Shown: positions 29,005 to 32,211 of the stretch, piece by piece
Numbering within the stretch: the first letter of the stretch is position 1
Layout of the letters: the number at the start of each line of letters is the position of its first letter
DNA from: Candidatus Aerophobota bacterium
Lineage (GTDB): Bacteria > Aerophobota > Aerophobia > Aerophobales > JAGGXI01
Assembly (NCBI GenBank): GCA_021163155.1
Contig: JAGGXI010000061.1
Coordinates: 18,768-82,767, forward strand
DNA length: 64,000 nt
Direction of reading: 5' to 3'
Position numbers and translations under genes: made by a program
Notes under the pieces: model-generated
Told to the model about the DNA's origin: nothing
Database searches by the model: none
What the model saw: only the letters and a program-made list of their open reading frames with translations

Positions 29005-32000
29005 TTATTCACCCCATGTCCAGTTAGCATTTAATTGAGCTATCTGTTGGGTTAACCATTGACTTTGAGTTGCTATTTGAGATAAATATATTTCCATCCG
29101 GATAAATTCTCTTCTTAAACTTTCCTCCTTTATTTCCAGAAGTTTTTCCTGAGAATCAATCCGGTCCTGATAATCTTCAATCTGGGAGTTAAGGCTATCT
29201 TCTATATAGGCAATCATCCCTTCATCAGCGTCAGTGAGAGAAGTTAAGTATGTATTTACTTTCCCGGCTATTCCTGTATCCTCATAAGCTTCAAATTCAA
29301 TCACACGAGAATAATCATTGCTTCCATTGCTCCCATTAATCTTAAGGCGAATACCTTCGGTAGGAATATGACCAAGGTAGTGACTCCTCATTCCTTCACT
29401 ATTATCAGTAATAGTAGTATAAGTTTTCCAGTCACTGTCAGTCCCAGGGTTTCCTCCCAATTTTAAATATTGAAGTTCATAATTTTTAATTCCATAAGTG
29501 GAAGCGGGATAAGTAGCCGAATCTAAAGTATAGATTTTTGCCCGCGTCAAAGTCCTTACCTTATTAAAGGTTACCCAGAGATAATCGGGAAAATCATCTA
29601 CGGTCCCATCTTCCCATCCTCCTCCCGGGCTTCCCCAACTATCCGATGAAGTATCCCCATTATTTACACTTCCCACATTATAATTACTGCTGTATTCTGA
29701 AGAGGCATAAGCTGTTCCTCCAAGAGATGTCAAAGCTATGTTGGTTGAAGCACAAAATAATTCTTTTACCCCTTCCAGATCGTTATTTAAAACATTGGTT
29801 AATTTTGATTCATCAACAGTTAATTTACCGGTAAGGCCGTCAGAGTTAATTCCTAAATCAAAAATAGATGTGAGTGAGCCTGATGTCTCTACAGAGTCGG
29901 TGATGATATTCCTCAGGTCATTTCGAATACTCATCAGGCTCATATTGCCAAATAAAACTCCTCCTTTTTCTTGTGTATCTGCATCATAACTTTGCTGAGT
30001 ATTAATGTAATCTATTATCTCATTATAAGCATCAATAAAACTAATAATATCCTGTTTTATTCCTTCTATATCCTCTTCCACTTTTACCTGGACAGTCTTT
30101 GAAGGGTCAGCCTCTAATAAGTTTAAGGTAAGACCAGGGATAACCTTATCCATACTGTTTGAATTATCGGTAGTTAGAATAGAATTTTCTTCTCCTAAGG
30201 ATACTGCAGCATCTTTTGGCTGAGTAGTAGTGGTAAAGGTTGCTGTTTCTCCTCCAGAGAGATTAGAATCAATAATCATTCTCCCTACAAGGCCGCTGCG
30301 GTTGCTGGTAATAAGCAAGTGGTAAGGATTAATCTCAGAGCCATCATTGATGATGACCGCCTGAACTCCTGCTTCTGCATTATTTATAGCATTTCTTAAG
30401 CCTTCAAGGGTATTATTTTCCGTGGTAATATCTACAGTGGTCTCAAAACTTCCGTCAATAGTATTGGCGGCAACATTATCCTTAATGTTAAGGTCCTGGG
30501 CAGTTGTTCCTCCACTTACTTCCTCTATCTTTAAGTTATTTACCGTCTCTCCTGTGTTATCAGTAATAAGGATACCATTTCCTTTAGAATTAATAGCAGC
30601 GGTAACATCAATTCCTGAGGCAGAGTTTATGGCATCCAGAACATCTCCTACGGTTTCTGTACCTGATAAATCTACCTCTTCGTAACTTCCAGAGCGGTCG
30701 GTTATCTTGATTTTCCCTGCATCTACTCCCTCTTTTCCATTAAGAGCCTCTAATTTTGTGCAGCGGGCAATATACTGGGGATTTAAATCTCCTCCCTCAA
30801 GAGTATCTTCAGAGACAGTCTGCTCAATTCCTAAATCAGAGGCAGCAGTGCTTGAGTTTAAGGAAGTTACCTTTAAATCACCTGTTCCGCCTGAAGAATC
30901 GGTTAAAAGTATGCCGTTACCTTTCTCATTATAAGAAGCTGTTATATTAGTATTTCCTGCAGCATTATTTATAAAGTTAATTACATCTTGAAGAGTCTCT
31001 GCTCCACTTATATCCACATTAAAAGTAGTGCTGTCTCTTTGCTGTATCTGAAAATCGTCTCCGGAGACAGAACCTATACCACTTCCACCATTGAGAGTTT
31101 TAAGAAGAACTGTATTAAAACCGGGAATAATTCTATCTCCCACTCTATCTCCAGCTATTCCTGTAGTATAGATTCCTAAATCATAAGCAGTTGTTCCTCC
31201 GCTGACTTCCTCAATAATTAAGTCTTGAGTAGGGGAACCATTTTCGTCATGGATAGTAATCCCATTGGTATCAGAATTAATCTCTACGGTTACATTGGTA
31301 TTTGCTCCTGCTTCAATTAAATCCTTTACATCCTGTAAGGTGGTAGCAGTAGATAAATCAATTGTATCTACATTCCCCACTCTATCAGTAATTTTAATGG
31401 AGCCTTTGTCCACTCCCGTTTTATCATTAAGTAAATCGAGAGATGTTGTCCAACCGATATCATTTATATCCTCTCCATCAATTACATTAGCAGCTACATC
31501 AGCTAATATTCCCAAATCAGTGGCAGTGGTTCCATTATCTACTTCTTCTACAATAAAATTACTTGCTCCTCCTGATGTATCAGTGAGTTTTATAGCATCG
31601 CCAGCATTATTATCATAGTCAATGCTGGCAGTAACAGAAATGCTTGTATTCTCGTTTATGGCATCTATCACATCTTGAATGGTAAGAGCTCCTGTTAAAT
31701 CAATTGTGGCTGAGACCCCACTTCTATCGGTTATCTTTATAGATCCCCTTGAAATGCCAGTTTGTCCATTTAACCATTCTAAGGGTGTCTTTTTATCTAC
31801 AAAGCCATCTCCTGTCTCAATACTAAAGGTTCCTGTTCCTACCCTGATAGTGTCTGTATCGTTATATCCTCCGGAGATGATTTGATGAGTTTGAGCGAGC
31901 TGATGAATTTTAAGGAAGTAGGTTCCTGCTTGAGGACTTCCCGTAGGAGTAACTGTAAGTATATTCTCATTGTTTGAAGTAGCAGTGGTATCTTGAAAAG

Positions 32001-32211
32001 TAGCCTCTCTATTAAGAACAGCACCATAGTTTTTAAGGGTGAGCAAGCGGGCAGTGACAGAACCCCAGGCGGTAAGCTTATTATTATCATCCGTTATTCT
32101 ATCCTGGAGAGAATTAGCATAAGAGCGCTCAATATCCATTAACGCATCAATGGTATCATTCCAGTCTAATCCTGAGATAAGTCCACTGATATTTTGTGTA
32201 GGTGCTGCCAT
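29005..32211 (-). CDS. fliD: flagellar filament cap protein FliD (HAP2), unusually long with internally repeated modules and a C-proximal discoidin-like domain
   Basis: 1068 aa. FliD N-terminus (ISGLISGLDWNDTIDALMDIE) and C-terminal coiled-coil domain. At least four modules of about 100 aa recur (G.IKITDR.G...DL...TLQDVIDAIN...GI.L.D.SG). Residues about 810-960 look like a beta-sandwich carbohydrate-binding domain. Confidence 0.85.
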   Translation of the reverse strand: MAAPTQNISGLISGLDWNDTIDALMDIERSYANSLQDRITDDNNKLTAWGSVTARLLTLKNYGAVLNREATFQDTTATSNNENILTVTPTGSPQAGTYFLKIHQLAQTHQIISGGYNDTDTIRVGTGTFSIETGDGFVDKKTPLEWLNGQTGISRGSIKITDRSGVSATIDLTGALTIQDVIDAINENTSISVTASIDYDNNAGDAIKLTDTSGGASNFIVEEVDNGTTATDLGILADVAANVIDGEDINDIGWTTSLDLLNDKTGVDKGSIKITDRVGNVDTIDLSTATTLQDVKDLIEAGANTNVTVEINSDTNGITIHDENGSPTQDLIIEEVSGGTTAYDLGIYTTGIAGDRVGDRIIPGFNTVLLKTLNGGSGIGSVSGDDFQIQQRDSTTFNVDISGAETLQDVINFINNAAGNTNITASYNEKGNGILLTDSSGGTGDLKVTSLNSSTAASDLGIEQTVSEDTLEGGDLNPQYIARCTKLEALNGKEGVDAGKIKITDRSGSYEEVDLSGTETVGDVLDAINSASGIDVTAAINSKGNGILITDNTGETVNNLKIEEVSGGTTAQDLNIKDNVAANTIDGSFETTVDITTENNTLEGLRNAINNAEAGVQAVIINDGSEINPYHLLITSNRSGLVGRMIIDSNLSGGETATFTTTTQPKDAAVSLGEENSILTTDNSNSMDKVIPGLTLNLLEADPSKTVQVKVEEDIEGIKQDIISFIDAYNEIIDYINTQQSYDADTQEKGGVLFGNMSLMSIRNDLRNIITDSVETSGSLTSIFDLGINSDGLTGKLTVDESKLTNVLNNDLEGVKELFCASTNIALTSLGGTAYASSEYSSNYNVGSVNNGDTSSDSWGSPGGGWEDGTVDDFPDYLWVTFNKVRTLTRAKIYTLDSATYPASTYGIKNYELQYLKLGGNPGTDSDWKTYTTITDNSEGMRSHYLGHIPTEGIRLKINGSNGSNDYSRVIEFEAYEDTGIAGKVNTYLTSLTDADEGMIAYIEDSLNSQIEDYQDRIDSQEKLLEIKEESLRREFIRMEIYLSQIATQSQWLTQQIAQLNANWTWGE

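What the first reader, a model, noticed from the sequence alone, without database searches (positions are those of the whole stretch)
29005..32211. Giant FliD cap protein (1068 aa) with four or more internally repeated modules of about 100 aa and an inserted discoidin-like beta-sandwich
Typical FliD proteins are 400-700 aa. This one keeps a canonical N-terminus (ISGLISGLDWNDTIDALMDIE) and C-terminal coiled coil. Between them it carries repeated modules with the recurring pattern LNG..G...G.IKITDR.G...IDL...TLQDVIDAIN...V.A.I...GI.L.D.SG...L.IEEV.GGTTA.DLGI (protein residues about 140-680, nt about 30170-31790). Residues about 810-960 (nt about 29330-29790: SDSWGSPGGGWEDGTVDDFPDYLWVTFNKVRTLTRAKIYTL...NYELQYLKLGG...DWKTYTT...RVIEFEAYE) resemble an F5/8-type-C / galactose-binding-like carbohydrate-binding domain. 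FliD tips mediate adhesion to glycans in pathogens. A lectin-like domain and an expanded head suggest a cap specialised for glycan or surface binding, or for capping a heavily glycosylated filament, since maf is present.
Basis: partly seen in the sequence, partly recalled or inferred. Interest (0 to 1): 0.7.

Follow-up and report, generated by a model that had tools for sequence, protein, structure and literature searches.

The report
Giant flagellar cap carrying a lectin-like domain
This gene encodes a real but oversized flagellar tip protein (FliD): an ordinary 463-residue cap core with four extra copies of a common flagellar surface domain and one sugar-binding-type domain spliced in, a design found in several uncultured bacterial groups but, as far as I could find, never studied.

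Summary
The ORF at 29005-32211 (-) encodes a 1068-aa FliD, lying between the flagellin gene and fliS in a complete flagellar locus of an Aerophobetes-like bacterium.

It is a canonical FliD with two nested insertions. Deleting residues 139-588 and 822-976 in silico leaves 463 aa that align in one unbroken stretch with Salmonella FliD (22-465 of 467).

- **Insertion 2:** a discoidin/CBM32 beta-sandwich. It passes Pfam's F5_F8_type_C cutoff when scanned alone, its model has pLDDT 92.5, and Foldseek gives E=3e-9 with TM 0.88 to CBM32 modules. It sits in the same D1 loop that holds domain D4 in Campylobacter FliD.

Related FliDs mix these parts freely: 3-8 modules, and a discoidin, a module or nothing at the second site. 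Both insertions are more conserved among orthologs than the FliD core.

Sugar binding and its target are inferred and were not shown. The main candidates are environmental glycans and the cell's own glycosylated flagellin. I file it as a new variant of a known kind, of moderate interest.

The parts
31885..32211 (-). FliD residues 1-109: N-terminal D0/D1 helices (FliD_N)
   Evidence: Pfam FliD_N at 13-109, E=6.4e-20. Colinear with the Salmonella FliD N-terminus.
31798..31884 (-). FliD residues 110-138: first D2 segment and the first beta-strand of the canonical D3 hairpin (GTGTFSIETGDGF)
   Evidence: In the double-deletion construct this stretch aligns with Salmonella FliD at about 108-135, directly followed by residues 589 onward.
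31453..31797 (-). Module R1 (residues 139-253), FliD-head/Flagellin_IN-type domain
31117..31452 (-). Module R2 (residues 254-365)
   Evidence: It is the most conserved region among orthologs (79% mean) and is absent from the 3-module relatives.
30766..31116 (-). Module R3 (residues 366-482)
   Evidence: The best Pfam Flagellin_IN stretch is at 392-437.
30448..30765 (-). Module R4 (residues 483-588)
29749..30447 (-). FliD residues 589-821: rest of D3 (second hairpin strand onward), second D2 segment and D1 helices (first part of FliD_C)
   Evidence: Residues 592-820 align with Salmonella FliD 150-378 and E. coli FliD. Pfam FliD_C at 666-826.
29284..29748 (-). Discoidin / F5_F8_type_C / CBM32-like beta-sandwich (residues 822-976) inserted in a D1 loop
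   Evidence: PF00754 at E=1.6e-7, 31.9 bits against a 28.2 cutoff. Profile hits to CBM32 2v72, 2xqx, 4uap and fucolectins. AF2 pLDDT 92.5. Foldseek 4zxe E=2.9e-9, TM 0.88. The site equals Salmonella 378-382 and C. jejuni D4 418-555.
29005..29283 (-). FliD residues 977-1068 plus stop codon: C-terminal D1/D0 long helix
   Evidence: Aligns with Salmonella FliD 382-465 and C. jejuni FliD 556-637.
32272..33810 (-). Flagellin (512 aa), immediately upstream of fliD
   Evidence: Pfam Flagellin_N and Flagellin_C.
28588..28980 (-). FliS chaperone
   Evidence: Pfam FliS, E=1.3e-34.
27953..28576 (-). Conserved 207-aa protein between FliS and Maf (TP0873_N/DUF8042 type in relatives)
   Evidence: No significant hit in this Pfam copy. 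Same-size genes in the same position in L001, L005 and L008, annotated PF27299/PF26154.
25914..27848 (-). Maf-type putative flagellin glycosyltransferase
   Evidence: Pfam MptE-like E=2.3e-46 and Maf_flag10_N E=1.1e-7.

Best explanation
This is a genuine flagellar filament cap protein (FliD/HAP2). Its 463-aa canonical core (D0-D1-D2-D3) is interrupted by two independently acquired, nested insertions.

(1) A 450-aa array of four tandem FliD-head/Flagellin_IN-type domains sits in the turn of the first beta-hairpin of D3. It would extend each arm of the star-shaped cap plate outward.

(2) A 155-aa CBM32/discoidin beta-sandwich is looped out of the D1 turn just before the long C-terminal helix. 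This is the same site that holds domain D4 in Campylobacter FliD, which lies outside the cap cavity under the plate.

Shown here: the identity, the boundaries, the folds, the insertion sites, the combinatorial distribution and the strong conservation.

Inferred: the core still caps the filament and inserts flagellin as in Salmonella, while the pentamer displays about 20 extra modules and 5 lectin-like domains on its outer face. The flagellar tip would then act as a multivalent glycan- or surface-binding adhesin. Binding of the organism's own glycosylated flagellin is the main alternative target.
For: - **FliD identity:** Pfam FliD_N and FliD_C. The gene order is FliW-CsrA-flagellin-FliD-FliS-207aa-Maf within a full flgF-to-flgL locus.
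- **Two insertions:** the double-deletion construct aligns in one stretch with Salmonella FliD 22-465 of 467 and with NCBIfam PRK08032 positions 8-464 of 465. The score rises from 143.6 bits in 3 stretches to 189.1 bits in 1 stretch.
- **Discoidin:**
- **Same site as C. jejuni D4:**. D4 is described as distant from the cap cavity (PMC12221982) and was postulated to mediate heparin binding (PMC7316729).
- **Head domains are dispensable and swappable** for capping in Pseudomonas (PMC8533109).
- **Selection:** among 15 orthologs, R1-R3 are 74-79% and the discoidin 67% identical to the window protein, against 54-56% for the D0/D1 core.
- **Related domains elsewhere:** related discoidin domains occur in tandem in Ig-domain surface proteins annotated as NedA-like galactose-binding.
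Against: No ligand binding was tested, and the F5/8-type-C fold also mediates protein and lipid contacts; the structural hits include IFT25, APC10 and SUN domains. The Pfam hit is modest (31.9 bits) and was not listed in the whole-protein scan. Domain boundaries for D2 and D3 in Salmonella come from my memory of published structures and were not measured here. The organism is uncultured, so no flagellum has been observed.
Confidence: 0.6

Rival explanations
1. The lectin-like domain recognises the cell's own glycosylated flagellin (glycans added by Maf). It would either hold the cap on a glycan-coated filament or couple glycosylation to subunit incorporation, with no role in binding external substrates.
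For: Maf lies three genes downstream. Two other discoidin-bearing loci carry Maf with NeuB, CTP_transf_3 or a NeuC-like epimerase next to fliD. The insertion site equals C. jejuni D4, which sits between D3 of the neighbouring FliD and the layer below the cap, close to the outer domains of the terminal subunits (PMC12221982).
Against: The FliD-FliS-DUF8042-Maf cassette also occurs with a 910-aa FliD that lacks the discoidin (L008). One discoidin-bearing FliD has no flagellar or Maf neighbours at all (L004). No nonulosonic-acid synthesis genes were found among the 28 window ORFs scanned outside the fliD locus (15 smaller ORFs of at least 100 aa were not scanned). The closest PDB relatives bind Gal, GalNAc, fucose or chitosan, not nonulosonic acids.
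Confidence: 0.22
2. Both insertions are purely architectural. They would enlarge or stiffen the cap to fit a wide filament built from a 512-aa flagellin with large outer domains, or shield the tip, with no specific ligand.
For: The modules have the generic flagellar outer-domain fold, and the same module type is found in this window's FlgK. In many relatives the second site holds another module in place of a discoidin (34 of 120), so the site tolerates interchangeable 'filler' domains. The F5/8-type-C fold has non-lectin members.
Against: The accessory domains are more conserved than the core, including loop residues of the discoidin that are invariant across 16 orthologs. That is unusual for filler. 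FliDs of about 600 aa carry the discoidin with no module array, which argues that the discoidin has a role of its own.
Confidence: 0.15
3. The giant ORF is an assembly or gene-calling artefact, such as a chimeric contig or collapsed repeats, and is not a real protein.
For: Repetitive genes in metagenome assemblies can be mis-assembled. The window appears to come from an uncultured lineage.
Against: An identical protein (P0001) and more than 20 orthologs at 58-72% identity, with the same four positionally orthologous modules and the same insert, occur on independent contigs from JGI, ENA, NCBI and Logan. Repeats that are only 38-53% identical cannot collapse in assembly. Synteny is conserved in an Aerophobetes MAG.
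Confidence: 0.01

Closest known systems
Canonical FliD/HAP2 filament cap (Salmonella and E. coli, 467-468 aa; PDB 9gnz, 5h5v)
   Same: The D0-D1-D2-D3 core is colinear over its whole length once the two insertions are removed. The operon position between the flagellin gene and fliS is the same.
   Different: 605 extra residues: four extra head-type domains nested in D3, and a CBM32-like domain in D1. It scores below the lineage-specific NCBIfam equivalog cutoffs (189 against 387 bits).
Campylobacter jejuni and Helicobacter pylori FliD with extra domains (D4, or D4-D5; PDB 6sih, 9gsx, 6iwy)
   Same: Enlarged caps with accessory domains. C. jejuni D4 (residues 418-555) occupies exactly the loop where the discoidin is inserted here. 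D4 lies outside the cap cavity and has been proposed as an adhesion domain (PMC12221982, PMC7316729).
   Different: The domain at that site here has a galactose-binding-like beta-sandwich fold. C. jejuni D4 instead contains a segment that weakly matches the IN-type module profile. No tandem four-module array has been described in those proteins.
CBM32 / F5_F8_type_C / NedA-like galactose-binding modules (e.g. C. perfringens NanJ CBM32 2v72, S. pneumoniae EndoD CBM32 2xqx, Paenibacillus chitosan-binding module 4zxe)
   Same: Sequence-profile homology (E=5.8e-6 to 2v72) and fold (TM 0.79-0.88). The NG...W...R...E core motif is conserved.
   Different: These modules are normally appended to glycoside hydrolases or surface proteins. 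Here the domain is looped into the helical leg of a flagellar axial protein. Its ligand is unknown.
Flagellin, hook and junction outer domains carrying the Flagellin_IN motif (PF07196; P. aeruginosa FliC D2/D3 8erm, H. pylori FlgE2 5npy)
   Different: Here four copies are concatenated in tandem inside D3, and relatives have 3 to 8.

Membership tests
FliD / HAP2 filament cap | N-terminal FliD_N and C-terminal FliD_C regions above Pfam thresholds | tested here: met
   FliD_N 72 bits (cutoff 24.8) and FliD_C 138 bits (cutoff 25.4).
FliD / HAP2 filament cap | Colinear D0-D1-D2-D3 core comparable to solved FliDs | tested here: met
   The 463-aa double-deletion construct aligns in one stretch with Salmonella FliD 22-465 of 467 (E=1.8e-29) and with PRK08032 positions 8-464 of 465.
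FliD / HAP2 filament cap | Gene context: next to the flagellin gene and fliS in a flagellar locus | tested here: met
   Flagellin-FliD-FliS, with FliW, CsrA, FlgK, FlgL, FlgN, FlgI, FlgH, FlgA, FlgG and FlgF upstream.
FliD / HAP2 filament cap | Score above an NCBIfam FliD equivalog cutoff | tested here: not met
   The best score is 143.6 bits (189.1 for the deletion construct) against a cutoff of 387. These models are lineage-specific equivalogs, so this reflects divergence and does not exclude the protein from the FliD superfamily.
FliD / HAP2 filament cap | Forms a pentameric cap at the filament tip and is required for flagellin polymerisation | not testable with these tools
   Needs genetics or cryo-EM.
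F5_F8_type_C / CBM32 (galactose-binding-like) domain | Pfam PF00754 match above the gathering threshold | tested here: met
   31.9 bits against 28.2, E=1.6e-7, full-length profile, when residues 829-992 are scanned alone. Not listed in the whole-protein scan. PF00754 and PF22633 are also found in orthologs and in 600-aa FliDs.
F5_F8_type_C / CBM32 (galactose-binding-like) domain | Eight-stranded beta-sandwich (jelly-roll) fold superimposable on solved CBM32 modules | tested here: met
   AF2 pLDDT 92.5. Foldseek gives 332 hits at E<=1e-3, led by 4zxe (TM 0.88), 2xqx, 4a44, 4uap and 2v72.
F5_F8_type_C / CBM32 (galactose-binding-like) domain | Binds a carbohydrate ligand through the apical loops | not testable with these tools
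   No coordinates were available for site mapping. Needs glycan array or ITC.
Flagellin_IN-type flagellar outer domain (modules R1-R4) | PF07196 motif match | tested here: inconclusive
   The whole protein scores 42.4 bits in 2 stretches (cutoff 22.7). Module R1 scanned alone reaches only 14.7 bits.
Flagellin_IN-type flagellar outer domain (modules R1-R4) | Fold shared with FliD D2/D3 and flagellin or hook outer domains | tested here: met

The most novel reading that the evidence does not exclude
The cap-borne lectin domain reads the Maf-installed glycans on flagellin as each subunit is inserted, or holds the cap on the glycan coat. This would give a physical mechanism for the long-observed but unexplained dependence of filament assembly on flagellin glycosylation in some bacteria.
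Probability: 0.12. Interest if true: 0.8.

Novelty: new variant of a known kind. Interest (0 to 1): 0.45.

Why it matters
FliD is known both as the machine that inserts flagellin and, in a few pathogens, as a tip adhesin. How adhesion is built into the cap is poorly understood, and the only extra domains studied so far are those of Campylobacter and Helicobacter.

This protein shows that the cap is a modular scaffold with at least two permissive insertion sites. Uncultured lineages have loaded those sites combinatorially with repeated head domains and a bona fide carbohydrate-binding-module fold, and these additions are under stronger constraint than the core.

If the domain binds glycans, flagellar tips in sediment bacteria would act as multivalent lectin probes for polysaccharide particles or for partner cells. 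The two sites would also be natural places to engineer display of foreign domains on flagellar tips.

Tried and rejected
- **Whole-protein self-BLAST** returned only the identity hit. Segment-against-segment comparison was needed to see the repeats.
- **The search for homologous proteins with the insert profile** returned only three fragments and was uninformative. The exhaustive representative search replaced it.
- **Literature searches** for FliD with Flagellin_IN, carbohydrate-binding, discoidin or Planctomycetes, and for Aerophobetes with flagella, found nothing on giant or lectin-bearing FliDs. One search and one paper look-up failed because a term was shorter than three characters.
- **Maf association test** was inconclusive. 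Three of four discoidin-bearing loci (counting the window) and one of three discoidin-free loci have Maf beside fliD. The remaining loci are isolated fliD genes.
- **Nonulosonic-acid genes in the window:** none found among the 28 ORFs scanned outside the fliD locus; 15 smaller ORFs of at least 100 aa were not scanned.
- **Model coordinates** are not exposed, so I did not attempt ligand-site mapping or measure the distance between module termini.
- **A new fold for the modules** was rejected.
- **Assembly artefact** was rejected.
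Full report
**Observation.** The ORF at 29005..32211 on the minus strand starts with ATG and encodes 1068 aa. Pfam finds FliD_N at residues 13-109 and Flagellin_IN motifs. FliD_C is split: residues 666-826 match profile positions 2-164 of 236, and the rest of the profile matches after an interruption. 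NCBIfam FliD models match in three or four separate stretches, all below their lineage-specific cutoffs. The neighbours on the same strand are flagellin (32272-33810), CsrA (34093-34326), FliW, FlgL, FlgK, FlgN, a rod-binding FlgJ-like protein, FlgI, FlgH, FlgA, FlgG and FlgF upstream. FliS, a conserved 207-aa protein and a Maf-type glycosyltransferase lie downstream. The rest of the window is housekeeping chromosome: DnaB, PurA, ClpB, BamA, UvrC, SecA, ArgRS and others. The nearest genomes are Candidatus Aerophobetes MAGs, at 71% and 68% identity with conserved synteny.

**Repeats.** Segment-against-segment BLASTP shows four modules: R1 139-253, R2 254-365, R3 366-482 and R4 483-588. They are 38-53% identical, with E-values from 1e-10 to 1e-28.

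**Anatomy: a canonical FliD with two insertions.** Residues 592-820 align with Salmonella FliD 150-378, and residues 977-1061 with 382-465. So about 155 residues sit inside a four-residue turn of the Salmonella protein. I deleted residues 139-588 and 822-976 in silico. The remaining 463 aa align with full-length Salmonella FliD in a single stretch (24-456 against 22-465 of 467, E=1.8e-29). They also align with NCBIfam PRK08032 over positions 8-464 of 465 in one stretch, and the score rises from 143.6 to 189.1 bits. At the first junction, the strand GTFSIET before the array and the strand TVDITT after it align with the two strands of one hairpin in Salmonella (TIKIEQ / LEIKLD), followed by the conserved helix LEGLRNAIN / MEAIRDAIN. 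The four-module array is therefore nested in the turn of the first hairpin of what I take to be D3. The assignment to D3 comes from my memory of the published domain boundaries. PMC8533109 confirms that D3 is itself a loop insertion in D2.

- H. pylori FlgE2
- FliD D2-D3 from E. coli, Salmonella, H. pylori, Bdellovibrio, Pseudomonas and Campylobacter
- P. aeruginosa FliC D2/D3

Phage tail-sheath domains follow. Foldseek ranks the same FliD entries first but weakly. The module sequence profile weakly hits C. jejuni FliD, the P. aeruginosa flagellin outer domain and ubiquitin-like beta-grasp proteins. It also hits FlgK of this window at 333-400 (E 9e-12). The modules are therefore duplicated FliD-head/Flagellin_IN-type domains, and the fold is not new.

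**What the second insertion is.** Scanned alone, residues 829-992 hit PF00754 F5_F8_type_C over the whole profile at 31.9 bits, above the 28.2-bit cutoff. A profile of 28 FliD inserts finds CBM32 and fucolectin-type modules among PDB sequences, including NanJ 2v72 (E=5.8e-6), EndoD 2xqx, GH31 4uap, SpX fucolectins and chitosan-binding modules. The AF2 model is confident (pLDDT 92.5). It superimposes on CBM32 modules: 4zxe at E=2.9e-9 and TM 0.88, then 2xqx, 4a44, 4uap and 2v72, with 332 hits at E<=1e-3. That list also includes non-lectin members of the fold such as IFT25, APC10 and SUN domains.

**The insertion site is a known one.** In C. jejuni FliD (9gsx, 642 aa), our residues 683-821 align with 271-417 and our residues 978-1060 with 556-637. 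C. jejuni residues 418-555, its extra D4 domain, therefore occupy the same loop. D4 is reported to be flexible, distant from the cap cavity and located between D3 of the neighbouring subunit and the layer beneath the cap. Its role is unknown, and heparin binding has been postulated (PMC7316729, PMC12221982).

**Distribution.** The homolog search returned 1393 FliD-like proteins, many of 900-1570 aa. The few that carry source names are from Planctomycetota, Phycisphaerae and Margulisbacteria MAGs. Among the best 120:

| Second site | Number of proteins | Modules in the array |
|---|---|---|
| Discoidin | 47 | 3, 4, 5, 6 or 8 |
| Another copy of the module | 34 | 4 in every case |
| Nothing detected | 39 | 4 to 8 |

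An exhaustive profile search with the insert found 350 cluster representatives at E<=1e-30. These include FliDs of about 600 aa that have the discoidin at the same FliD_C position but no module array. They also include many non-FliD proteins with 2-8 tandem copies of a related domain, annotated F5_F8_type_C / NedA-like galactose-binding and often carrying Ig-like domains. The two insertions are thus independent and are combined freely. Within the Aerophobetes-like clade the modules keep positional orthology (m2 to m2 at 83-90%). Three-module proteins have lost m2, and eight-module proteins look like block duplications.

**Constraint.** Across 15 four-module orthologs, identity to the window protein varies by region:

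| Region | Mean identity |
|---|---|
| R1-R3 | 74-79% |
| R4 | 67% |
| Discoidin | 67% |
| D0/D1 termini | 54-56% |
| D2/D3 remnants | 46-59% |

This is the reverse of the usual pattern, in which flagellar outer domains are the variable part. It argues that the accessory domains do something specific.

**Function (inferred).** The core should cap the filament and chaperone flagellin insertion as in Salmonella. Head domains are dispensable and exchangeable for that task in Pseudomonas (PMC8533109), which explains why the head tolerates large insertions. F5/8-type-C domains have adjacent termini, with the binding loops at the opposite end (established knowledge of the fold). A looped-in copy would therefore point its binding loops away from D1, on the outside of the cap.

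I consider a multivalent tip adhesin for glycans or surfaces the most likely role. The main rival is recognition of the cell's own glycosylated flagellin. Maf is adjacent here, and two other discoidin-bearing loci carry NeuB, CMP-transferase or epimerase genes. But the FliD-FliS-DUF8042-Maf cassette also accompanies a FliD with no discoidin, so the association is not specific. A purely architectural role cannot be excluded.

**Novelty.** Enlarged FliDs with extra domains are known from the Epsilonproteobacteria, and the databases already annotate these proteins automatically as FliD with PF00754. I found no paper describing module arrays or a CBM32-type domain in a cap protein. I classify this as a new variant of a known kind, of moderate interest.

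Noticed in passing
window 29005-32211 (FliD), per-region comparison with 15 orthologs: The accessory domains are more conserved among orthologs than the canonical D0/D1 core (R1-R3 74-79% and discoidin 67%, against 54-56%). This reverses the usual hypervariability of flagellar outer domains.
   Followed up: partly
window 27953-28576 (-): A 207-aa ORF between fliS and maf has no significant hit in this Pfam copy. A gene of the same size holds the same position in Aerophobetes (L001 4400-5023), L005 (12070-12693, annotated TP0873_N + DUF8042) and L008 (DUF8042). FliD-FliS-DUF8042-Maf looks like a conserved cassette of unknown logic.
   Followed up: partly
window 36187-37800 (-), FlgK residues 333-400: The hook-filament junction protein FlgK carries one copy of the same IN-type module found in FliD (module HMM E=9e-12; Pfam Flagellin_IN E=4e-11).
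   Followed up: no
P0124-P0266 (hits), e.g. P0124 (1575 aa, 8 copies), P0136, P0184: Many non-flagellar proteins carry 2-8 tandem copies of a discoidin domain closely related to the FliD insert, often with Big_3_5 Ig-like domains. They may be the donor family for the FliD insertion.
   Followed up: partly
P0246, P0252, P0265 (about 600-aa FliDs): Short FliDs carry the discoidin at the same FliD_C site but have no module array, which shows that the two insertions were acquired independently. Their taxa are not named in the sources.
   Followed up: partly
L006 8001-11108 and L007 8001-11027: Giant FliDs of about 1000-1035 aa, with a module copy at the second site, are encoded alone between an outer-membrane efflux protein gene and a homoserine dehydrogenase gene, with no other flagellar genes within 8 kb.
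   Followed up: no
window 1-64000, composition profile: GC and AT skew flip sign near 26 kb and again near 52 kb. The flips coincide with the switch from plus-strand genes to the minus-strand flagellar block and back, so the skew tracks coding strand here and does not mark a replication origin.
   Followed up: no
window 34093-34326 (-) and 34410-34835 (-): A CsrA-FliW pair lies directly upstream of the flagellin gene. This is the arrangement of the FliW-CsrA-flagellin partner-switching circuit known from Bacillus and Campylobacter.
   Followed up: no
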